Source: a candidate division WS1 bacterium (GTDB lineage: Bacteria > Armatimonadota > Zipacnadia > Zipacnadales > Zipacnadaceae). Taken from it: a DNA stretch of 63,824 nucleotides. A model generated the notes under the pieces. The model was not told where the DNA came from and ran no database searches. It saw nothing but the letters and a program-made list of their open reading frames with translations. The stretch is taken from contig JAAYIR010000089.1 of assembly GCA_012523355.1 (NCBI GenBank), forward strand, positions 1-63,824. The letters run 5' to 3'. This document shows positions 5,891 to 50,221 of the stretch, one piece after another. A program made the position numbers and the translations under genes. How positions within the stretch are numbered: position 1 is the stretch's first letter; each line of letters begins with the position of its first letter.

Positions 5891-5966
<76 letters not shown>

Positions 5967-6361: not shown

Positions 6362-6550
6362 CTACTCGGACCAGCTAATGGCCGACACCGGGCAGGAGTC
6401 AATAGCCTCCTGGATGGTGTCCTGGTCGTCGCCCGCCGGATCCTGGACGACTGCCACCCCGTCATCATTCATGGCAAAAGTGTTTTCCGCGATCTGGGTG
6501 CACAGTTCGCACCCGGTGCAAGTATCTGCATCGACTACAGGAACCGCCAT
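6362..6550 (-). CDS. Single-cluster ferredoxin, predicted [4Fe-4S] type
   Basis: 62 aa with CTGCELC...CP (CxxCxxC...CP). Paralog of the ORF at 6086..6277. Confidence 0.85.
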   Translation of the reverse strand: MAVPVVDADTCTGCELCTQIAENTFAMNDDGVAVVQDPAGDDQDTIQEAIDSCPVSAISWSE

Positions 6551-6663
6551 TTCAACTCACCTCCGGTACATTTAGCACGACGCCGCCTGTATTCTGCACT
6601 GAAGCCGGGGATACCTTCCCGGCCCAGGCACGCGGCGAACTCAAAGACGAAGCGCACCCGTAA

Positions 6664-7575
6664 TTAGTTCTTGCGCCAGCTGTTCCACACCGGCCAGAGA
6701 CGCTGTATCCGGGGCCGAAAACCAGCGGTGGGCAGGGCGCCATCCACCGCTCGCAGAGTTGATATCACGATCTCCGGGGGGCAATTGAGGCGGTAGTACG
6801 GCTGCACGATTCCGACACCGCGGGAGACCTGGAGCATGGTCCCCTGGTAGTTGAACAGTCCCCAGGCATAGTGGGCGCCGAGCTGGCTGTTGACTACCGG
6901 CGGTCCCACAAGAGGCAGGACGACCTGCCCCCCGTGAGTGTGACCACACAGATACAGATCCATGTCCCCCGCAGAGAGCCGCGAGACCAGGTCCGGAGTA
7001 TGTCCCAGGCCCAGGCGACAGACCGCTGAGGGGACCCCCTCTAAGGCCTGGGGGACGTCTTCGCGTCCGGTCACCGGATCGTCAATACCCACCACCCATA
7101 CCTGCCCGTCGCTGTCTGGCAAGAGAAGGCTCCGGTTACGCAGCACCTCCCACCCCGTCTCTTGCAGTGTCCGCACCACGGCGTCGCGGCGGCCATGGAA
7201 GAAATCGTGATTCCCCAACACGGCATACTTCCCGCGGGGCGCATGCAGCGCGGCGAGGTCAGGGGCAAAGTGACGCAGGAACTTCGGGATGGTGCTGAGC
7301 AGGTCTCCCGTGAAGCAGATCACATCCACGGGATAGCGCTGCATAGCGGCCAGGGCTTCGTGAAGATAGCGCCGGGACACAGCGGCGGTGAGGTGGAGGT
7401 CGGTGAAGTGTAGTATGCGCAGCCCGTCGAGCTCACGAGGCAAACGCGCGACGGGCACCTCCCACTCGGTCAGATGGAGGTCATACTTCTCGCCACGAAG
7501 GAACCAGCCGCCGCGTCCCACCAGGTAGGCGCCGGTGGCGACCCCCGCGGCCTGGAGAAAGTGGCGTCGCGTCAT
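6664..7575 (-). CDS. Calcineurin-like metallophosphoesterase with twin-arginine signal (YkuE/YaeI-like)
   Basis: MTRRHFLQAAGVATGAYLV Tat-like N-terminus. Metallophosphatase motifs ILHFTDLHL, TGDLL, GNHDF and GHTHGGQ. The ATG at 7573..7575 lies 4 nt after the stop of the upstream QueC-like gene. Confidence 0.85.
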   Translation of the reverse strand: MTRRHFLQAAGVATGAYLVGRGGWFLRGEKYDLHLTEWEVPVARLPRELDGLRILHFTDLHLTAAVSRRYLHEALAAMQRYPVDVICFTGDLLSTIPKFLRHFAPDLAALHAPRGKYAVLGNHDFFHGRRDAVVRTLQETGWEVLRNRSLLLPDSDGQVWVVGIDDPVTGREDVPQALEGVPSAVCRLGLGHTPDLVSRLSAGDMDLYLCGHTHGGQVVLPLVGPPVVNSQLGAHYAWGLFNYQGTMLQVSRGVGIVQPYYRLNCPPEIVISTLRAVDGALPTAGFRPRIQRLWPVWNSWRKN

Positions 7576-7579
7576 GGAC

Positions 7580-8917
7580 TCACCCCAACCCCATGAGAGC
7601 GGCGGCCTCCGGGAAGCGACGCTGCGTGACCTCAAAAATCTCCGTGGCCTGGCGCCGCAGCGCGCGGACCACGTCCATCACCTGCGCGCCGCCCTCCTGC
7701 ATCTCCAGCAGCGAGGGGTACTGCAGCGGAATCTGCACCTCCGGAGTGAACAGCAAGCGCCGCGCCCATCCCAGCAGATCGGTAAGGTTGCGGTAGGCCT
7801 CGGTGTTTCGGGCGTCATGGGGCGCCGCCAAGACATCTGTGCCGTACACCTCATCCGGGAGATCGCAGGAAAGTAGAGCGAAGCGTCGCAGCAGGCAGGG
7901 CACGCACGCTCCGCATTGTCGCTGATGGCGCCCGATGGCCCAGCAGGATACGGTCTGCTCGATCTCCTGCGGGCTCAGCACCGGCTGCAGGCAGTTGCGG
8001 ATGATCTCGCCCTTAGCCTGATACAGGAAGGGATTCACCAAACGCACCTTCCAACCGGCAGCTTCCAGTAAGTCATTAAACTTCGCCAGCGCGACGGGAT
8101 GCGTACTATGGGTAGTGAAGCTGCCGATCCGCGCCTCGGAGACTGGTACGGCGGCCGTGAGAACGGCGTTGTCGCACAGGTAGACTTCCTCCACTCCCTC
8201 GCCCCTAGCGGCAAGGGCTCCCAGAGCCATGAATAGCACGGAGCGACAACGCCGGGTGGTCTCGCGGCGGTCCGGAGGCGGGAAGGGCAGGGCGTGGGTG
8301 CGATGCGAGCTCGGCGCGAGGCGCACGGGCGAGAGGCGCGAGCAGTCGGGCCAGTGCTCTTCCAGCGTGGCGGCGACGCGATCTTGTGCCTCAGCAACCG
8401 TGGGGTTGCCGGAACGATGCATGACCAGGCGCGGGAAACGGCCTGTGCGCAAGAGCAGGGCAGCGCCGGCCATGGAGTCCAACCCGCCGGACACCAGGCA
8501 GACGCTGTCCGCGCTGGGCCAGGCCGGGGCACTGGGCAGATCGCCCTCCTCGGCGCGGGCACTAAACCGCAGGTCAAAGTTGTCACCGCTGATCCGGTTC
8601 AGGAGTTGGGAAAGATCTCTCTGGTGAGCCTCCCAGAAGTCCAGCTCGCGAACTGCCAGGTCCAGCTCGATATCCCGGACGAAATCTTCGTTGCGCCCTC
8701 GGGGCACGGCCAGGTCCGCCAGATAGACCCCCACGGCCACGTCCAGAAAATCCAGGGCCAGGGGGCGCTCCTTGCCACTCGGCAGAGGCAGGGCCGAACA
8801 CTCCAGCAGCGCGTTTCGCTGCTCGGAGCGCCAATCCAGCAGGCAGACATTCGGCTCCGCGCAGTGCTGCGCGGCTCCCGCCGTCCGGCCCTCCGTCTGA
8901 AACATCCGTGCGACCAA
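7580..8917 (-). CDS. QueC-like PP-loop ATPase with N- and C-terminal extensions (QatC/Cap9-type), not a canonical 7-cyano-7-deazaguanine synthase
   Basis: SGGLDS PP-loop at aa 143-148 (nt 8474..8491). QueC-type zinc Cys cluster C-x11-CGACVPCLLRR near aa 335-355. 445 aa against about 220-230 aa for housekeeping QueC. TTG start at 8917 lies 4 nt after the upstream stop; an alternative ATG is at 8905. Confidence 0.8.
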   Translation of the reverse strand: MVARMFQTEGRTAGAAQHCAEPNVCLLDWRSEQRNALLECSALPLPSGKERPLALDFLDVAVGVYLADLAVPRGRNEDFVRDIELDLAVRELDFWEAHQRDLSQLLNRISGDNFDLRFSARAEEGDLPSAPAWPSADSVCLVSGGLDSMAGAALLLRTGRFPRLVMHRSGNPTVAEAQDRVAATLEEHWPDCSRLSPVRLAPSSHRTHALPFPPPDRRETTRRCRSVLFMALGALAARGEGVEEVYLCDNAVLTAAVPVSEARIGSFTTHSTHPVALAKFNDLLEAAGWKVRLVNPFLYQAKGEIIRNCLQPVLSPQEIEQTVSCWAIGRHQRQCGACVPCLLRRFALLSCDLPDEVYGTDVLAAPHDARNTEAYRNLTDLLGWARRLLFTPEVQIPLQYPSLLEMQEGGAQVMDVVRALRRQATEIFEVTQRRFPEAAALMGLG

Positions 8918-8921
8918 AACT

Positions 8922-9674
8922 CTACCCCCCGGCCAATCCGGCCAGTCCTTCGCGAATCATCGAGGCTACCAGCGGGTCCAGTGCTCGCGACCTCTGCTCC
9001 TCGGGGAGCCGTGCCATCTCCTGGAGGTCCTGCTCCACGCGCCGCAAGCCGGGTGGCCGGCCCCGCGCCTGGCAAAATTCCCCGACCCGATCCACCAGGC
9101 GGGCCGCGGCGGTCACGGTGGGAGCCGCAGCCTCGCCGACGTGGTCGGCCAGATCGCGGGTGACAAAGTAGCGGAAGACACGATCGAAATCCTGCGCACA
9201 GAACTCCCCGGTGAGAACGCTGAGGTCCTGCTCAGTGGTGTAACGACCGTAACGGGCGGTCACCGTCTCGGCGGGTAGTTCGTACCAGGCAGGCGTGGGT
9301 CCCAGAGCTGCAACTACCGTGGGTGGAATGGCGTCGAGAGCCAGCGTTCCGGTGACCGAGGCGACGTGGTCGGCGCCGATCCGGTCCGCTGCCTGGCGCC
9401 GCAGCCTCCCAGCGAGATCGAGGGCAGCCGATCCCGTCTCCTGGGCGGGAACGAGTTGGCTGCGCCCCTCCGCCAGGTCCGCGCTCCCAGCCAGCACTGA
9501 GTCCAGGCAGCGCACCACCGCCGCATCGTGCAGGCGTTGGCGAGCAGCGTCATCCAACGCAGCCACGATGCGACCCACGATCTCTCCCGGGGCGGGATTG
9601 GGGGTCAGATACAATTCCCGGACGCGATCCCACTCCGCGGTGACTGGTGAGCGATGTGAGGTGGAGGTACCCAT
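8922..9674 (-). CDS. Uncharacterised 250-aa protein, candidate QatB-like partner of the QueC-like enzyme
   Basis: Long ORF in the same orientation as the QueC-like gene and immediately upstream of it. Predicted soluble, Ala/Arg/Asp-rich and helical-looking, with no motif I recognise. Begins MGTSTSH and ends GLAGLAGG-stop. Confidence 0.6.
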   Translation of the reverse strand: MGTSTSHRSPVTAEWDRVRELYLTPNPAPGEIVGRIVAALDDAARQRLHDAAVVRCLDSVLAGSADLAEGRSQLVPAQETGSAALDLAGRLRRQAADRIGADHVASVTGTLALDAIPPTVVAALGPTPAWYELPAETVTARYGRYTTEQDLSVLTGEFCAQDFDRVFRYFVTRDLADHVGEAAAPTVTAAARLVDRVGEFCQARGRPPGLRRVEQDLQEMARLPEEQRSRALDPLVASMIREGLAGLAGG

Positions 9675-9888
9675 AGACTAGACCGGCGAGCATCTCAACG
9701 TGCTCGTCATTTCGCCCCTTCCTGTTGCACAACCTTCTTACGGGTGGTATTGGTCAAGGCGGCCAACGAGGAGGCCAGCGGGAGTCAATCCTGCGCTCCC
9801 GGAAGGTAACAAGCCCGCAAACTTCACGCGCAGGAATCGCAGACCCATGCGAGGAAACTGTACACGCTCACGGAAAGGAAGCGGCAAC

Positions 9889-10686
9889 ATGGCACTCCAC
9901 CTCGGCGTCCAGACCTACGGCTGGTACGCTTACCAGCAGGAACACGAATCCACCTTCAGCTATAGACTGGTCCTGGCCGAATGTGCCAAGACCGGGTTCA
10001 GAGGGGTGGACATGACCGGAGCGTATCTGCCCCAGATGCAGGACGCGGCGGTGGTACGCGAGGTCTGCGACGGCCTCGGTGTGCGCATCGTGTGCACCGG
10101 CGTCGGGGTGGACGATCTCGAAAAGGCGCGCGTAGCGATTGAGTTCTTGCGCGCCCAGGCCGGCACAGCCTTGATGGCCGGGGGCGGCTGGGTGCCCGAG
10201 GGAGAAGATCCGGAGCAGGTCATGGACAAGCTGATACAGGACGCCAACGCCATGGCTGAGCTCTCGCGGGAGCTGGACTTCCCCATCGGTTTCCATAACC
10301 ATCTGGGGACGGTAACGGAGACACCGGAGGGCCTGGCGCGGTTCCTGGACAGCACCGAGATTGGCTGGTGTGCGGACCTCGGGCACATGGCCTCGGGCGG
10401 AGCCAAGCCGCTGGAGTTCCTGGAGCGGTACGGGAAGCGCGTGGTACACTGTCACCTGAAGGACTCGATGCTGGACGAGCAGGGCCAGCACGTGCGCTTT
10501 TGCGAGCTGGGCAAGGGCACGGCGGGGATTGACCTCGACGCCTGCCTGAAGGTACTGGTGGCCCAGGGCTTTGACGGCTGGGCGTGTGTGGAGCAGGACC
10601 AGACGACGCTGACGCCCTTTGCGGACCAAAAGTACAATCACGACTACCTGGAGGGCCTGGGTTACGGGTGGGCGCTTGAGGACTGA
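9889..10686 (+). CDS. Sugar phosphate isomerase/epimerase (xylose isomerase-like TIM barrel)
   Basis: MALHLGVQTYGWY..., a HNH...E metal-ligand-like pattern (FHNHLGTVTE, CADLGH, HCHLKD, VEQD). ATG at 9889 is preceded by GGAAAGGAAG. The ORF-track N-terminal extension was rejected. Confidence 0.85.
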   Translation: MALHLGVQTYGWYAYQQEHESTFSYRLVLAECAKTGFRGVDMTGAYLPQMQDAAVVREVCDGLGVRIVCTGVGVDDLEKARVAIEFLRAQAGTALMAGGGWVPEGEDPEQVMDKLIQDANAMAELSRELDFPIGFHNHLGTVTETPEGLARFLDSTEIGWCADLGHMASGGAKPLEFLERYGKRVVHCHLKDSMLDEQGQHVRFCELGKGTAGIDLDACLKVLVAQGFDGWACVEQDQTTLTPFADQKYNHDYLEGLGYGWALED

Positions 10687-22695: not shown

Positions 22696-22770
22696 TGGCT
22701 GGGGCGGTAGGATTCGAACCTACGAATACGGGATCCAAAGTCCCGCGCCTTACCGCTTGGCCACGCCCCA
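22696..22770 (-). tRNA. tRNA-Gln (anticodon TTG), CCA encoded
   Basis: Reverse complement reads TGGGGCGTGGCCAAGCGGTAAGGCGCGGGACTTTGGATCCCGTATTCGTAGGTTCGAATCCTACCGCCCCAGCCA. U1:A72 and G73 are typical of bacterial tRNA-Gln. Anticodon loop is CUUUGGA. Confidence 0.9.
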
Positions 22771-29126: not shown

Positions 29127-29984
29127 TCAAAGCTCCCCCCAGAGATAGGCTATGAGATTCTCATATTCCTGGAAGTCCGGAACGATGATATCGGCGCCCA
29201 CCCCCGCCAGGCGCCGACGCTTCCATTCATCCAGATGGCCCGGATGCTTCTCGTCCACGGCCACGCCAATCGCCACCCCGCCGACTCGCTTGGTTTCCTC
29301 GATCTCCACGAACCCATCCCCGGCCCCCAGAAGCTCGTCGCCCTGCAAGTTGTTGTCGCGGATCAGGCGCTCGATGACCATGGCCTTCGAGCAATCAAGC
29401 AGGTCCTCGGTAGCTCCATAGATGTGCCCGTTGGCGTATTGTGCTACTCCCAGAGCCGTCGCCTCGTCAATGACATTGGGTTGATCGGTCCCACTGGCGA
29501 TGAACAGGTTCACTCCCCGCTGGTGGAGTGCCTTCAACATGTCCAGCGCCCCGGGAACCATGTGGTCCTCCGGCCGCAAGGCCCCGCTTTTGAGTCCTTC
29601 CACACGGTCCTTGATCCGCTCCCAGAGCAGATCCAGGTACATCTCCTTGTACTCGCCAGCCGACAGAGCCTTGCCGCCCCGCGCCTGGATCTCCTGCTCG
29701 AAGCGCATCATCTGATAGATGGTTTGCTTGCCGGTGAGCACGGTGACAAATTCTGTCACCAGCGCGGTGAGGTCCTCTTCGGTCTCTTCCCGTCGCATGT
29801 ACTGCCGCAGGATATCCACCATCATGGGGATCATCACCTGCTGCCAGCCCTCACGAATCAGCGACACCGTACCGTCAAAGTCAAAGAGCGCAAAGGGCTT
29901 GGGCCCCTTGGGCAGCGAGGGGTTGAGCACCTCAATCCGGGTGCCGGGCAGAAGGGTTCCGGTTATGCCATCGAATTCAGTCAT
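29127..29984 (-). CDS. HAD-superfamily hydrolase
   Basis: FDFDGTV (motif I), ASGT (motif II region) and GDGFVE (motif IV-like). The ATG at 29984 overlaps the mnmA stop by 8 nt. Confidence 0.75.
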   Translation of the reverse strand: MTEFDGITGTLLPGTRIEVLNPSLPKGPKPFALFDFDGTVSLIREGWQQVMIPMMVDILRQYMRREETEEDLTALVTEFVTVLTGKQTIYQMMRFEQEIQARGGKALSAGEYKEMYLDLLWERIKDRVEGLKSGALRPEDHMVPGALDMLKALHQRGVNLFIASGTDQPNVIDEATALGVAQYANGHIYGATEDLLDCSKAMVIERLIRDNNLQGDELLGAGDGFVEIEETKRVGGVAIGVAVDEKHPGHLDEWKRRRLAGVGADIIVPDFQEYENLIAYLWGEL

Positions 29985-31071
29985 GAGATAGGTACGGGTC
30001 AGCTCCCTCCTCCGTAATAATCCCGCCCCCCAGCAGCAGGTCGCGCTGGTAAAATACCGCGGCCTGGCCGGGGGCCACTGCCTGCTCATGCGCAGCTAGC
30101 TCTAGCTGCGCCCTTGCGCCCTCCAGCGCGGTCACCGTCCCCGCTACAGGCTGTCCCCGGTAGCGCACCTCCACCTCGGCCTCTACCGTCTCCCCTACCG
30201 CGGGAGGTCGCCGTGAAAGCCAGTTGACGTCTTCCAGGAGCACCACGCGCCGGGCCAGGGCTGTTCGCGGCCCCACCACCAATCGGTTCTCGTCTGTGTC
30301 CTTCGCAATCACAAACAGCGGCTCACCCCCACCGATCCCCAGCCCCCTCCGCTGCCCGACGGTATAGGCCGCCAAACCCTCATGCTCGCCCAAAACACGT
30401 CCCTGCCGGTCCACGACCAGTCCCGGCGCAAAAGGAACGCGCTCCCGCAGGAAGGCCTGGAGGTCTCCTTGTGAGAGGAAGCAGATATCCTGACTTTCCG
30501 GTACCTCCGCGGCCGGCAGATCGAGTTGCATCGCCCATTGCCGGACTTCGTCCTTGGAAAGGCTACCCAGGGGCAGCAGCGTCCGAGCCAAGGTCTCCTG
30601 AGACAGCCCGTACAGCACATAGGACTGATCCTTGCTCCGGTCCACGCCCCGCTTCAGCAACCAACGCCCGCCACCCTCTTCTACCTGGGCGTAGTGGCCG
30701 GTGGCCAGGTACTCGCAGTCTTGGGCCTCGGCATAGCTCAGCAACTCTCCCCATTTAACCACCCCGTTGCACATTAGGCAAGGGTTCGGGGTGCGTCCGG
30801 CGGCGTAAGCGGCCACAAAAGGCTCCACTACTGAACGGTAGAACACGGCCGTAAGGTCGAGGACGCGGTGGGAGATTCCCAACTTGTGACAGACCTTCTG
30901 AGCGCGATGCGCCGTCTCCACCTCGCCAGATGGTGTCTCCCCGGCCCGGGTCCCGGACAGGTCCGGAAGCTGCATGGTGACGCCCGCAACCTGGTGTCCC
31001 TGCTCTAACAGCCTTGCCGCCGCGACGCTAGAATCTACGCCGCCACTCATGGCCACCATGACTCGGGGCAT
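29977..31071 (-). CDS. mnmA: tRNA 2-thiouridine(34) synthase
   Basis: VAMSGGVDSSVAA PP-loop, NPCLMCN, ATGHYA and DQSY motifs. Confidence 0.95.
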   Translation of the reverse strand: MPRVMVAMSGGVDSSVAAARLLEQGHQVAGVTMQLPDLSGTRAGETPSGEVETAHRAQKVCHKLGISHRVLDLTAVFYRSVVEPFVAAYAAGRTPNPCLMCNGVVKWGELLSYAEAQDCEYLATGHYAQVEEGGGRWLLKRGVDRSKDQSYVLYGLSQETLARTLLPLGSLSKDEVRQWAMQLDLPAAEVPESQDICFLSQGDLQAFLRERVPFAPGLVVDRQGRVLGEHEGLAAYTVGQRRGLGIGGGEPLFVIAKDTDENRLVVGPRTALARRVVLLEDVNWLSRRPPAVGETVEAEVEVRYRGQPVAGTVTALEGARAQLELAAHEQAVAPGQAAVFYQRDLLLGGGIITEEGADPYLSHD

Positions 31072-49499: not shown

Positions 49500-49575
49500 T
49501 GGAGGCGGCAGCCGGAGTCGAACCGGCGAATAACGGTTTTGCAGACCGTCGCCTTAGCCACTTGGCTATGCCGCC
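49500..49575 (-). tRNA. tRNA-Cys (anticodon GCA), CCA encoded
   Basis: Reverse complement reads GGCGGCATAGCCAAGTGGCTAAGGCGACGGTCTGCAAAACCGTTATTCGCCGGTTCGACTCCGGCTGCCGCCTCCA. Anticodon loop CUGCAAA; U73 discriminator typical of Cys. Confidence 0.9.
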
Positions 49576-49663
49576 TCCTCTCGATAGGACGGGCGTCCCG
49601 CCCGTTCCACCGGCGGACACAGAACGGGCGAGGCGGACCTATCCGCCCCGCCCTTGGGAAAAC

Positions 49664-49739
49664 TGGAGCGGAAGAAGGGATTCGAACCCTCGACCTTCTC
49701 CTTGGCAAGGAGGCGCTCTGCCAACTGAGCTACTTCCGC
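49664..49739 (-). tRNA. tRNA-Gly (anticodon GCC), CCA encoded
   Basis: Reverse complement reads GCGGAAGTAGCTCAGTTGGCAGAGCGCCTCCTTGCCAAGGAGAAGGTCGAGGGTTCGAATCCCTTCTTCCGCTCCA. Anticodon loop UUGCCAA. Confidence 0.9.
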
Positions 49740-49821
49740 TTTCTTACGTCAGCTTGAACACCCGCGCAATGGCAGCGAAACGAGAGCTACCGAAACGGCC
49801 TTCATTCTGGCTGCCGTCAGA

Positions 49822-49897
49822 TGGAGCGGGAAAAGGGACTCGAACCCTCGACACCCAGCTTGGGAAGCTGGTGCTCTACCACCTGAGCTATTCCCGC
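49822..49897 (-). tRNA. tRNA-Gly (anticodon CCC), CCA encoded
   Basis: Reverse complement reads GCGGGAATAGCTCAGGTGGTAGAGCACCAGCTTCCCAAGCTGGGTGTCGAGGGTTCGAGTCCCTTTTCCCGCTCCA. Anticodon loop UUCCCAA. Confidence 0.9.
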
Positions 49898-50011
49898 TCC
49901 CACTCGCGATGTTGATTATACCGGATACCGCCGCTACGTGCAACCAGCCTGGGTGACCGGCAAGAGGCCCGCACACTTGCGCCGGGCGGGACGCCCGTCC
50001 TGCTGATCATA

Positions 50012-50087
50012 TGGTGGGCGGTAGAAGACTTGAACTTCTGACTTCAGCCGTGTGAAGGCTGCGCTCTGCCAGCTGAGCTAACCGCCC
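50012..50087 (-). tRNA. tRNA-Val (anticodon CAC), CCA encoded
   Basis: Reverse complement reads GGGCGGTTAGCTCAGCTGGCAGAGCGCAGCCTTCACACGGCTGAAGTCAGAAGTTCAAGTCTTCTACCGCCCACCA. Anticodon loop UUCACAC. Confidence 0.9.
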
Positions 50088-50133
50088 ACACTCCCTGTGC
50101 ACCGAACAGACGCCACCTTTGCCAGGCAGGCTT

Positions 50134-50221
50134 TGGTGCCGAGGGCGGGACTCGAACCCGCACGAACCTTGCGGTCACTAGCCCCTCAAGCTAGCGTGTC
50201 TGCCAATTCCACCACCTCGGC
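50134..50221 (-). tRNA. tRNA-Leu (anticodon GAG), long variable arm, CCA encoded
   Basis: Reverse complement reads GCCGAGGTGGTGGAATTGGCAGACACGCTAGCTTGAGGGGCTAGTGACCGCAAGGTTCGTGCGGGTTCGAGTCCCGCCCTCGGCACCA. Anticodon loop UUGAGGG. 88 nt, class II. Confidence 0.9.

What the first reader, a model, noticed from the sequence alone, without database searches (positions are those of the whole stretch)
7580..9674. QatC/Cap9-type QueC-like ATPase with a 250-aa unknown partner but no QatA ATPase or TatD nuclease: candidate rewired deazaguanine-conjugation or defence-like module
Seen in the sequence: the 445-aa ORF (7580..8917, minus strand) carries the PP-loop SGGLDS (nt 8474..8491). It also has a QueC-type zinc Cys cluster (C-x11-CGACVPCLLRR). 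It is about twice the size of housekeeping QueC, with an N-terminal extension of about 140 aa and a C-terminal extension of about 70 aa. It begins 4 nt (TTG) or 16 nt (ATG) after the stop of a 250-aa ORF with no motif I recognise. No queD, queE, queF, tgt or folE-like product appears among the window ORFs. Established knowledge: long QueC-like proteins encoded next to a small unknown partner are the core of the Qat anti-phage system (QatA ATPase, QatB, QatC QueC-like, QatD TatD nuclease). They also occur in type IV CBASS (Cap9 QueC-like plus Cap10 TGT-like). As I recall, recent work reports that these QueC-like enzymes conjugate a 7-deazaguanine derivative onto the partner protein rather than making preQ0. 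Inference: this locus keeps the B-C core architecture but lacks the ATPase and the TatD nuclease, and a metallophosphoesterase sits in the downstream slot. It could be an undescribed Qat-like variant or a non-defence use of protein deazaguanylation.
Basis: partly seen in the sequence, partly recalled or inferred. Interest (0 to 1): 0.8.

Follow-up and report, generated by a model that had tools for sequence, protein, structure and literature searches.

The report
Two-gene QatB–QatC module, no QatA/QatD
This is a natural two-gene version of the known Qat anti-phage core: a QueC-like enzyme and the small protein whose N-terminal glycine it probably tags. It lacks the usual ATPase and nuclease and is inherited like a core gene across a class of Armatimonadota.

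Summary
ORF 7580..8917(-) is a QatC-type PP-loop enzyme. It matches PADLOC QatC at 2e-58. Its model matches solved P. aeruginosa QatC over its full length (TM about 0.7). It scores only 20.6 bits against canonical QueC.

In fact it starts MGTSTSHRSPVTAEW, which is the published QatB acceptor motif (MGTS plus a downstream Pro/Trp). Its helical body matches no QatB model or structure directly. One intermediate QatB links it to the family.

The pair is adjacent in all 37 related loci long enough to show both genes. All are Armatimonadota MAGs. None has a KAP ATPase or a TatD nuclease. Neighbours are housekeeping genes, dnaA/dnaN in 12 loci. QatC-like divergence tracks DnaA divergence (r = 0.96). 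The metallophosphoesterase is an exported neighbour found only in the closest relatives, so it is not a component.

Published work already shows that QatBC alone can defend. This is therefore a new variant of a known kind, not a new system. The unusual feature is vertical, core-genome-like inheritance, which leaves a non-defence role open. Interest is about 0.5.

The parts
8922..9674 (-). qatB-like gene, 250 aa. It is the presumed protein substrate: an all-alpha protein with a QatB-type N-terminus.
   Evidence: ORF. An in-frame stop lies 2 codons upstream of the ATG, so the M-G start is unambiguous. The AF2 model has pLDDT 91 and 11 helices. The family comprises 31 word-index hits and 219 representatives at E<=1e-3.
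9600..9674 (-). Codons 1-25 of the partner, MGTSTSHRSPVTAEWDRVRELYLTP. This is the presumed acceptor tail: Gly2 exposed after Met removal, plus a docking segment with Pro10 and Trp15.
   Evidence: These residues stay 67-96% identical to relatives whose remaining sequence is only 34-64% identical. hhalign aligns them to the canonical QatB N-terminus MGTSTSSKG..SPLVPSW. The MGTS, Pro and Trp motif is essential in QatB (PMC13279940, PMC13639016).
8918..8921 (-). 4-nt spacer between the qatB-like stop (TAG 8922-8924) and the qatC-like TTG start. Translational coupling is likely.
   Evidence: Similarly short gaps occur in relatives.
7580..8917 (-). qatC-like gene, 445 aa. It encodes a QueC-family PP-loop ATP-dependent ligase with QatC-type N- and C-terminal extension domains.
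   Evidence: PADLOC QatC 2e-58. NCBIfam QatC 211.5 bits. PDB QatC chains 9vlk_A at 6e-36 and 9zee_B at 1e-33. Foldseek 9y02_B at 9e-19 with TM 0.69-0.73 over 414-417 columns.
8474..8491 (-). PP-loop SGGLDS (residues 143-148), the ATP pyrophosphate-binding motif.
   Evidence: S, G, G, D and S are invariant in 38 relatives.
8096..8116 (-). TTHSTHP (residues 268-274). This is the QatC-type substrate pocket, where Thr/Ser replace the Tyr/Asp that read the deazaguanine in QueC and Cap9, followed by the conserved HP.
   Evidence: Alignment to P. aeruginosa QatC T278-R-T280-T-H-P. Family columns. Role of T278 and T280 from PMC13279940.
7895..7945 (-). Zinc-binding cysteine cluster C-x9-CGACVPC (residues 325-341), followed by LLRR.
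   Evidence: The four Cys are invariant in 38 relatives. Canonical QatC has C-x19-C (PMC13329287).

Best explanation
The locus is a self-contained two-gene QatB-QatC module.

Inferred mechanism, by homology to the solved QatBC and Cap9-CdnD complexes:
1. Methionine aminopeptidase removes Met1 of the 250-aa protein and exposes Gly2.
2. The conserved first 25 or so residues dock into the active-site cavity of the 445-aa QatC-like enzyme.
3. The enzyme uses ATP at its SGGLDS PP-loop to adenylate a carboxylate. This is most likely 7-carboxy-7-deazaguanine.
4. The Gly2 amine attacks the adenylate, leaving an N-terminal amide-linked deazaguanine (NDG) on the partner.

The modified partner, or the complex, is then the active species. 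The most likely biological role is QatBC-type anti-phage defence that works without QatA or QatD. In this lineage the module has become a fixed, vertically inherited chromosomal gene pair.

Shown here:
- The enzyme family and fold.
- The intact catalytic motifs.
- The acceptor motif.
- Strict gene adjacency.
- Absence of QatA, QatD and other defence genes.
- Vertical inheritance.

Inferred:
- Complex formation.
- The chemistry.
- The defence role.
For: Enzyme:
- QatC HMMs hit strongly. QueC TIGR00364 scores only 20.6 bits against a cut-off of 150.
- The model matches solved QatC over its full length. It matches Cap9 and QueC only over the core.
- PP-loop, Zn cysteines, the D56 equivalent of catalytic D63, RxRxxxF, HP and the Lys of P(x)4TK are conserved in 38 relatives.

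Substrate:
- MGTS plus Pro/Trp sits at an unambiguous N-terminus.
- The N-terminal 24 residues are far more conserved than the rest.
- 94 of 113 representatives of the wider family start (M/V)G.
- hhalign aligns the N-terminus to canonical QatB.
- A QatB carrying a PF28083 hit, in a KAP-QatB-QatC-ASCH operon, matches the wider family profile over residues 1-225 at 34.6 bits.

Linkage:
- The B-C order is kept in all 37 loci where the contig extends far enough.
- It is also kept for distant relatives.

Defence link:
- QatBC alone defends (PMC13279940, PMC13434339).
- An NDG-modified GTSKAY peptide of QatB was detected (PMC13639016).
- In other lineages the same partner type and QatC type sit next to a FokI-like nuclease (L055) or in defence islands (L052, L054).
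Against: - No direct hit of the partner to any QatB model: three PADLOC models, NCBIfam, and the precomputed PF28083.
- No hit to PDB QatB by profile or by Foldseek, although the library holds the QatB-QatC entries 9y01 and 9y02.
- The predicted unstructured tail is only about 10 residues, against 30-90 in canonical QatB.
- The QatC-like protein is below NCBIfam's equivalog cut-off (211.5 against 280).
- The context is not defence-like. Neighbours are housekeeping genes. The 64-kb window holds no other defence gene, no mobile-element gene was seen near the pair, and viral contigs give no hit.
- Divergence tracks DnaA (r = 0.96) at a core-gene rate.
- No queD or queE is seen in the window or the related loci. 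A supply of CDG is therefore unverified.
- Even for canonical QatC the first substrate is still debated (PMC13279940, PMC13376578).
Confidence: 0.6

Rival explanations
1. The enzyme-substrate chemistry is the same, but the role is not defence. The pair would be a lineage-wide housekeeping system that permanently or conditionally tags the N-terminus of a conserved cellular protein, for example for regulation or stress response. It would be either the ancestor of Qat defence or a domesticated descendant.
For: - The pair is found in 42 species-level Armatimonadota MAGs, in four conserved housekeeping synteny groups. In 12 loci it lies next to dnaA-dnaN.
- Pairwise identity of the QatC-like protein tracks DnaA (r = 0.96). 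Mean identity is 72%, against 76% for DnaA and 73% for DnaN.
- No QatA, QatD or other PADLOC hit occurs in the window.
- Viral contigs give no hit.
- GC content of the pair (0.67) is close to the window's (0.64).
Against: - Every characterised member of the QatC clade is a defence protein.
- Related pairs elsewhere sit with nucleases or in defence islands.
- Some defence systems are chromosomally fixed.
- No candidate cellular function or interacting conserved neighbour was found. Neighbours differ between synteny groups.
Confidence: 0.25
2. The ligase attaches something other than 7-carboxy-7-deazaguanine to Gly2, namely a different carboxylate metabolite.
For: - The Tyr/Asp pair that reads deazaguanine in QueC and Cap9 is replaced by Thr/Ser, as in QatC.
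- Two groups could not identify the first substrate of QatC (PMC13279940, PMC13376578).
- This subclade also has CDN(A/G/C) in place of the ENG motif, and a shorter Zn loop.
- No que genes lie nearby.
Against: - An NDG-modified QatB N-terminal peptide was detected by LC-MS/MS for E. coli QatBCD (PMC13639016).
- que genes are usually unlinked, so their absence from 64 kb says little.
Confidence: 0.25
3. The unit is a three-gene module in which the downstream metallophosphoesterase replaces QatD as effector.
For: - The gene is on the same strand, and its ATG lies 4 nt after the qatC-like stop in the window.
- It is also downstream in L001, L003 and L005.
Against: - It has a twin-arginine signal and resembles YaeI and LpxG, so it is probably exported or envelope-associated.
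- The gap is 79-600 nt in the other three loci.
- It is absent in L004 and in all more distant loci.
Confidence: 0.04
4. The 445-aa protein is the genome's housekeeping QueC and makes preQ0.
For: It has a Pfam QueC hit over the C-terminal 74 residues. Some databases name its relatives '7-cyano-7-deazaguanine synthase'.
Against: - TIGR00364 scores 20.6 bits against a cut-off of 150.
- E. coli QueC does not hit the window by tblastn at E<=1.
- The QueC catalytic motifs are replaced by QatC motifs.
- The fold matches QatC including both extensions.
- E. coli QatC cannot complement a queC deletion (PMC13329287).
Confidence: 0.01

Closest known systems
QatB-QatC core complex of the QatABCD anti-phage system (P. 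aeruginosa 9y01/9y02/9zee; E. coli 9vlk/9vll)
   Same: - QatC-type enzyme with both extension domains, PP-loop, Zn site, a Thr-type pocket and the QatB-binding loop at the same length.
- The partner is encoded immediately upstream, starts MGTS with downstream Pro/Trp, and is all-alpha.
- BC alone is known to suffice for defence against some phages.
   Different: - No QatA or QatD anywhere in the family.
- The partner's helical body is not detected by QatB models or by Foldseek, and its tail is short (about 10 against 30-90 residues).
- The Zn loop is C-x9-C rather than C-x19-C.
- The QatC-like protein is about 26-34% identical to canonical QatC and forms a separate clade in an NJ tree without bootstrap.
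- It is chromosomal, vertically inherited and in housekeeping context, rather than on plasmids or in islands.
Type IV CBASS Cap9-CdnD deazaguanylation (9nto)
   Same: A QueC-family ligase acts on the N-terminal Gly of the protein encoded next to it (MGGS against MGTS). The chemistry is proposed to be the same.
   Different: - Cap9 is a minimal protein of about 185 aa that keeps the QueC Tyr/Asp pocket.
- Its substrate is a CD-NTase, and Cap10 and an effector are present.
- None of these occurs here.
Canonical QueC (7-cyano-7-deazaguanine synthase; 3bl5, 2pg3)
   Same: The PP-loop Rossmann core and the C-terminal Zn-cysteine cluster.
   Different: QueC is half the size, acts on a small-molecule substrate, and has different catalytic motifs. 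It scores far below the cut-off here.
Other QatC-centred variants seen here: KAP-QatB-QatC-ASCH (L056), FokI-like nuclease-partner-QatC-like (L055), partner plus a 575-aa QatC-like protein near ThsB_TIR (L052)
   Same: All have the same B-then-C gene order and an MG-start partner. The L055 and L052 partners belong to the same wider partner family as the window's protein.
   Different: They carry accessory nuclease or ATPase genes, or sit in mobile or defence islands. The window's clade has neither.

Membership tests
QatC (QueC-like enzyme of Qat systems) | Match to QatC profile models | tested here: met
   PADLOC PDLC02214 QatC 2e-58, 196 bits. phmmer to PDB QatC chains gives 6e-36 and 1e-33.
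QatC (QueC-like enzyme of Qat systems) | Score at or above NCBIfam equivalog NF041925 cut-off (280 bits) | tested here: not met
   211.5 bits. It is a divergent subfamily, outside the curated equivalog boundary.
QatC (QueC-like enzyme of Qat systems) | QueC core plus QatC-specific N- and C-terminal extension domains | tested here: met
   The AF2 model (pLDDT 91.8) aligns to 9y01_B and 9y02_B over 414-417 columns with TM 0.69-0.73.
QatC (QueC-like enzyme of Qat systems) | SGGxDS PP-loop and four-Cys Zn site CGxCxxC..RR | tested here: met
   SGGLDS at 143-148 and C325/C335/C338/C341 followed by LLRR. These are invariant in the family. The spacing is C-x9-C rather than C-x19-C.
QatC (QueC-like enzyme of Qat systems) | Thr/Thr in place of the QueC/Cap9 Tyr/Asp nucleobase-reading pair, plus the HP, RxRxxxF and P(x)4TK motifs and the catalytic Asp | tested here: met
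   - T269 and S271 align to P. aeruginosa T278 and T280.
- HP and RRCRSVLF are present.
- NPFLYQAK is present, with Thr changed to Ala in this subclade.
- D56 aligns to E. coli D63.
- The ENG motif is CDNA in this subclade.
QatB (substrate protein of QatC) | N-terminal MGTS with conserved downstream Pro and Trp | tested here: met
   MGTSTSHRSPVTAEW. More than 90% conserved in the family. Aligned to canonical QatB by hhalign at E 1.5e-4, 16 columns.
QatB (substrate protein of QatC) | Encoded immediately upstream of qatC on the same strand | tested here: met
   4-nt gap. The order is kept in all 37 loci long enough to show both genes.
QatB (substrate protein of QatC) | Match of the helical body to QatB profiles | tested here: inconclusive
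   Against a match:
- No hit to the three PADLOC QatB models, to NCBIfam, or to PDB QatB by profile.
- hhalign of the wider family against canonical QatB gives probability 12.8%.
- No PF28083 hit is on record for the family.

For a match:
- The same PADLOC models also miss a bona fide Rhodococcus QatB.
- An intermediate QatB carrying a PF28083 hit (L056) matches the wider family profile at 34.6 bits over residues 1-225.
QatB (substrate protein of QatC) | Structural similarity to solved QatB | tested here: not met
   Foldseek of the pLDDT-91 model against PDB gives nothing at E<=0.001, and no QatB chain is in the top 50. The library does contain 9y01 and 9y02. Foldseek is weak on divergent all-alpha folds.
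QatB (substrate protein of QatC) | Long (30-90 aa) disordered N-terminal tail | tested here: not met
   AF2 predicts the first helix from residue 12. Only residues 1-4 have pLDDT below 50.
QatB (substrate protein of QatC) | Forms a complex with QatC and is modified at Gly2 | not testable with these tools
   This needs a multimer prediction, a pull-down and mass spectrometry.
QatABCD defence system | QatA (KAP-family NTPase) in the operon | tested here: not met
   - No PADLOC QatA hit among 61 window ORFs.
- No KAP_NTPase among the called genes of L001 and L002.
- No conserved neighbour of that kind in 44 loci.
QatABCD defence system | QatD (TatD-family nuclease) in the operon | tested here: not met
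   Same searches as for QatA.
QatABCD defence system | Protects against phage | not testable with these tools
   This needs a plaque assay in a heterologous host.
Canonical QueC | Meets the TIGR00364 equivalog cut-off and has the QueC catalytic motifs | tested here: not met
   20.6 bits against 150.3. Foldseek to 3bl5 covers the core only, at E 1e-3.
Type IV CBASS (Cap9/Cap10/CD-NTase) | Short Cap9, with an adjacent CD-NTase and a TGT-like Cap10 | tested here: not met
   The enzyme is 445 aa. No CBASS hit occurs in the PADLOC scan of the window. tblastn finds no Tgt homologue.

The most novel reading that the evidence does not exclude
Protein N-terminal nucleobase (or related) conjugation by a QatC-type ligase is a constitutive cellular function in a whole class of Armatimonadota, not an immune function. 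The QatB-like protein would be a conserved cellular factor switched by the tag. The Qat and CBASS-IV defence systems would then be offshoots of, or parallel to, this housekeeping modification.
Probability: 0.2. Interest if true: 0.8.

Novelty: new variant of a known kind. Interest (0 to 1): 0.5.

Why it matters
How modified QatB restricts phage, and what QatC really ligates, are open questions in a field that is one to two years old. Three points make this locus useful.

- **A natural minimal module.** A BC-only module with a compact partner (short tail, confident fold) is a natural experiment. It shows the core is autonomous, and it offers a simpler pair for reconstitution and structure work.
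- **Unusual inheritance.** Its core-gene-like inheritance is atypical for defence systems. It raises the testable possibility that protein deazaguanylation has a cellular role beyond immunity.
- **Missed by current tools.** QatB models (PADLOC, NCBIfam, Pfam PF28083) miss a wider MG-start partner family of at least 219 representative clusters. Qat-like modules are therefore under-counted by defence finders.

Tried and rejected
- **Partner profile (A1) against PDB sequences.** No hit at E<=10.
- **Partner model against PDB and BFVD by Foldseek.** Nothing significant.
- **hhalign of A1, and of a 120-sequence wider alignment, against canonical QatB.** Only the N-terminal motif aligned, or probability 12.8%.
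- **Local Pfam copy.** It lacks the QatB model PF28083, so it could not be used as a test. It gave no hit even for canonical QatB.
- **Viral contig scan.** No relative found.
- **Rfam over the whole window.** Only tRNAs, and no preQ1 or other riboswitch.
- **Promoter and terminator scan of 6400-10200.** Nothing found. The scan may not suit this phylum.
- **Metallophosphoesterase as a component.** Rejected, because it has a TAT signal and is not conserved with the pair.
- **Genomic island at the tRNA gene at 5894-5966.** Considered and rejected. There is no integrase, GC content is uniform, and synteny with relatives is conserved.
- **Neighbours conserved in sub-groups.** The GNAT, the two Cys-rich small proteins, DUF3160, the Wzz/BY-kinase and DHDPS each occur in only one synteny group. 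I treat them as synteny, not as parts of the module.
- **Complex prediction.** I could not predict the B-C complex because the tool folds single chains only.
- **Genome-wide checks.** I could not check whole genomes for folE, queD or queE, or for prevalence across all Armatimonadota.
Full report
**1. The observation**

The two minus-strand ORFs exist as described: 7580..8917 (445 aa, TTG start) and 8922..9674 (250 aa, ATG start).
- SGGLDS lies at nt 8474..8491, residues 143-148.
- The cysteine cluster is C-x9-CGACVPCLLRR (residues 325-345), not C-x11.
- The 250-aa ORF has an in-frame stop two codons upstream of its ATG, so its N-terminus M-G-T-S is unambiguous.
- The TTG start of the downstream gene, 4 nt after the stop, aligns with the N-termini of relatives: LVARMFQTEG against MPxRVxxxEG. 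It is therefore preferred over the ATG 12 nt further on.
- GC content of the pair (0.67) is close to that of the window (0.64).

**2. The 445-aa protein is QatC-type, not QueC**

Sequence evidence:
- PADLOC QatC scores 2e-58.
- NCBIfam QatC NF041925 scores 211.5 bits. That is strong but below the equivalog cut-off of 280. QueC TIGR00364 scores 20.6 bits against a cut-off of 150.
- Pfam QueC covers only the C-terminal 74 residues.
- phmmer finds the solved QatC chains 9vlk_A (6e-36) and 9zee_B (1e-33).

Structural evidence:
- An AF2 model built on 38 relatives has pLDDT 91.8.
- It matches P. aeruginosa QatC (9y02_B, 9y01_B) at E 9e-19 and 3e-18, with TM 0.69-0.73 over 414-417 columns. The match includes both QatC-specific extension domains.
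- Cap9 (9nto_B, 6e-5) and QueC (3bl5, 1e-3) match only the core.

The motifs that define the QatC cluster (PMC13329287, PMC13279940) are present:

| Motif in QatC | In this protein |
|---|---|
| Catalytic D63 (E. coli) | D56 |
| D(x)4R | present |
| RxRxxxF | RRCRSVLF |
| HP | present |
| P(x)4TK | NPFLYQAK, Lys kept |
| Four Zn cysteines | present |
| T278, T280 (P. aeruginosa) | Thr, Ser |

. The window's subclade carries stable substitutions: CDN(A/G/C) for ENG and FTTHSTHP for LSTRSTHP. Relatives down to 55% identity share them, so they are selected variants and not decay.

In an NJ tree without bootstrap, the Armatimonadota sequences form one clade. It sits inside the QatC superclade, separate from canonical QatABCD QatC and far from E. 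coli QueC.

**3. The 250-aa protein is a divergent QatB-type substrate**

It hits nothing in PADLOC, Pfam or NCBIfam. However, it begins MGTSTSHRSPVTAEW.

Published work bears on this motif:
- G2D and deletion of residues 16-22 abolish defence.
- The tail sits in the QatC active site.
- An NDG-modified GTSKAY peptide has been detected.

(PMC13279940, PMC13639016, PMC13376578.)

Findings in the window's family (31 word-index relatives; alignment A1):
- The first 24 residues stay 67-96% identical to the window protein, while the rest falls to 34-64%.
- hhalign aligns only this N-terminal segment to canonical QatB: 16 columns, E 1.5e-4, probability 51%.

The helical body gives no direct match:
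- AF2 gives pLDDT 91 and 11 helices.
- The A1 profile finds no PDB chain at E<=10. A canonical QatB profile finds 9zee_A and 9vll_A at about 1e-21.
- Foldseek finds nothing, although the library holds the QatB-QatC entries (control).

Two results soften this negative:
- The PADLOC QatB models also miss the Rhodococcus QatB, which sits in a bona fide KAP-QatB-QatC-TatD operon.
- An intermediate QatB from a KAP-QatB-QatC-ASCH operon, carrying a precomputed PF28083 QatB hit (L056), matches a 120-sequence profile of the window's wider family. The score is 34.6 bits, collinear over residues 1-225. It also matches the canonical QatB profile at 16.5 bits. The E-values of that local test refer to only 8 sequences.

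I therefore read the partner as a highly diverged QatB. Direct homology of the body remains unproven.

An exhaustive profile search found 219 representative clusters at E<=1e-3 and 40 at E<=1e-30. Of 113 full-length representatives, 94 start (M/V)G. Subfamilies begin MGTS or MGH. The relatives I could look up are each followed by a QatC-like gene.

**4. Context and inheritance**

A scan of GTDB species representatives gave 42 loci. All are Armatimonadota MAGs (Ca. Zipacnadia, Armatimonadia, 'WS1'). The search patterns were family-specific, so this shows where the core family lives, not that relatives are absent elsewhere.

- B-then-C adjacency holds in all 37 of the 44 related loci whose contig reaches far enough.
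- No KAP NTPase and no TatD occurs in any locus.

Neighbours fall into four synteny groups made of housekeeping genes:

| Group | Gene order |
|---|---|
| 1 | ADH - TIM barrel \| B C \| metallophosphoesterase (the window and its closest relatives) |
| 2 | dnaN - dnaA \| B C (12 loci) |
| 3 | DUF3160 - Wzz/BY-kinase \| B C \| GNAT |
| 4 | DHDPS - two small Cys-rich paralogues \| B C |

Further context:
- In the dnaA group, pairwise identity of the QatC-like protein correlates with that of DnaA (r = 0.96).
- Mean identities there are DnaA 76%, DnaN 73%, QatC-like 72% and QatB-like 65%. This is vertical descent at a core-gene rate.
- A PADLOC scan of 61 window ORFs finds only QatC. The DndA and SspA hits are the NifS/IscS cysteine desulfurase.
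- No viral contig encodes a relative.
- Rfam finds only tRNAs.
- E. coli QueA, Tgt, QueC, QueD, QueE and QueF have no homologue in the window or in the 44 loci.

**5. The metallophosphoesterase is not part of the module**

- Its ATG (7575) lies 4 nt after the qatC-like stop.
- It has a twin-arginine signal and resembles YaeI and LpxG, so it probably acts outside the cytoplasm.
- It follows the pair only in the window, L001, L003 and L005, with gaps of 79-600 nt in the other three.
- It is absent in L004 and in all more distant loci.

**6. Mechanism**

Shown:
- An intact QatC-type PP-loop ligase.
- An adjacent, probably translationally coupled gene whose product exposes Gly2.
- Extreme conservation of the partner's first 25 or so residues.

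Inferred from the solved QatBC and Cap9-CdnD complexes:
- The tail docks in the ligase.
- ATP activates a carboxylate, probably 7-carboxy-7-deazaguanine.
- The Gly2 amine forms an amide with it.

The downstream step, how the tagged partner acts, is unknown even for canonical QatBC.

**7. Comparison with what is known, and novelty**

- QatBC alone protects against lambda-vir and P1 when cut out of QatABCD operons (PMC13279940, PMC13434339).
- A survey seeded on QatD listed seven natural operon forms, none of them BC-only (PMC13434339).
- An SSN study noted that only about 34% of QatC-cluster genes have qatA or qatD nearby, without describing the rest (PMC13329287).

The locus is thus a new variant of a known kind. 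It is a natural BC-only module with a strongly diverged QatB and a distinct QatC clade, fixed in the core genome of a lineage.

Other variants turned up in passing:
- KAP-QatB-QatC-ASCH.
- FokI-like nuclease-partner-QatC-like.
- A 575-aa QatC-like protein near ThsB_TIR.
- A QatC-like protein with an HTH/M78 neighbour in an RM/GmrSD island.

 Together they show that the B-C core is combined modularly with different accessories.

**8. Verdict**

| Item | Verdict |
|---|---|
| Observation | confirmed, with two corrections |
| Enzyme-substrate reading | confidence about 0.8 |
| Defence as the biological role | confidence about 0.55 |
| Full statement | confidence 0.6 |
| Non-defence (housekeeping) reading | probability about 0.2-0.25; the most novel reading still open |
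| Interest | 0.5 |

Noticed in passing
L002 7810-10043; also L006-L013, L039, L043: In 12 related genomes the pair is transcribed divergently from dnaA-dnaN. In L002 about 870 nt lie between dnaA and the partner's start. That interval would be expected to hold the dnaA promoter and possibly oriC. I did not look for DnaA boxes.
   Followed up: partly
L055 268-3815: The operon is: FokI-cleavage-domain protein (341 aa), a 192-aa partner starting (GTG)GTSVNQSSPPTPIW (68 bits to the wider partner profile), a QatC-like protein (436 aa), and an unknown 209-aa protein. It looks like an undescribed Qat-like variant with a FokI-type nuclease in place of TatD.
   Followed up: partly
L056 2874-7230 (and L057): The operon is KAP NTPase, QatB (PF28083), QatC and an ASCH-domain protein. 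ASCH takes the place of the TatD nuclease QatD.
   Followed up: no
L052 8001-10504: A partner-family protein starting MGMSSSHPSPGGKW is followed by a 575-aa QatC-like protein (PADLOC QatC 2e-61) with an extra C-terminal region. The pair sits in a low-GC contig near ThsB_TIR, 8xMP and ThiF genes, which looks like a defence island.
   Followed up: partly
window 8925-8936 (C-terminus of the partner): The partner family ends in a conserved GL..LAGG, followed by 0-2 residues. This Gly-Gly-type C-terminus is not shared by canonical QatB or by the more distant relatives. Its significance is unknown.
   Followed up: no
L023 1810-2747; also L015, L022, L027, L040, L044: Two overlapping paralogous genes of about 150 aa have Cys/His motifs (HHCPSKGRL...YCGHCDVLYRRV) and no Pfam hit. 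They lie directly upstream of the pair on the same strand in one synteny group (10 loci).
   Followed up: partly
L036 10126-10611; 11 loci in all (cluster 4): A GNAT acetyltransferase gene converges on the 3' end of the qatC-like gene in 11 loci. It is probably only synteny, but an N-acetyltransferase beside an N-terminus-modifying system is worth a look.
   Followed up: no
P0165 and P0193: Two representatives are fusions. One is a partner-like N-terminal part (its N-terminus changed to MHMFGPHRSP) joined to an ECF-sigma-like C-terminal part. The other is a truncated partner joined to an S24/LexA-like peptidase. They may be gene-calling or assembly artefacts.
   Followed up: no
window 29980-31071 (-) and neighbouring ORFs: A second PP-loop protein (SGGVDS at 31030-31047) is MnmA, the tRNA 2-thiouridine synthase. 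A NifS/IscS cysteine desulfurase elsewhere in the window explains the strong PADLOC DndA and SspA hits.
   Followed up: yes
window 49503-50221 (-), 22699-22770 (-), 5894-5966 (-): There is a cluster of five tRNA genes and two single tRNA genes. The one at 5894-5966 lies about 700 nt downstream of the metallophosphoesterase. No integrase or repeat suggests an island there.
   Followed up: partly
L047 4991-5863: The Rhodococcus QatB in a KAP-QatB-QatC-TatD operon is annotated as a short hypothetical protein. The ORF's first start codon adds 8 residues. The real start is probably the GTG that gives (M)GTSGSFGG. No PADLOC QatB model detects this protein, which shows how poorly current models cover QatB diversity.
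   Followed up: yes
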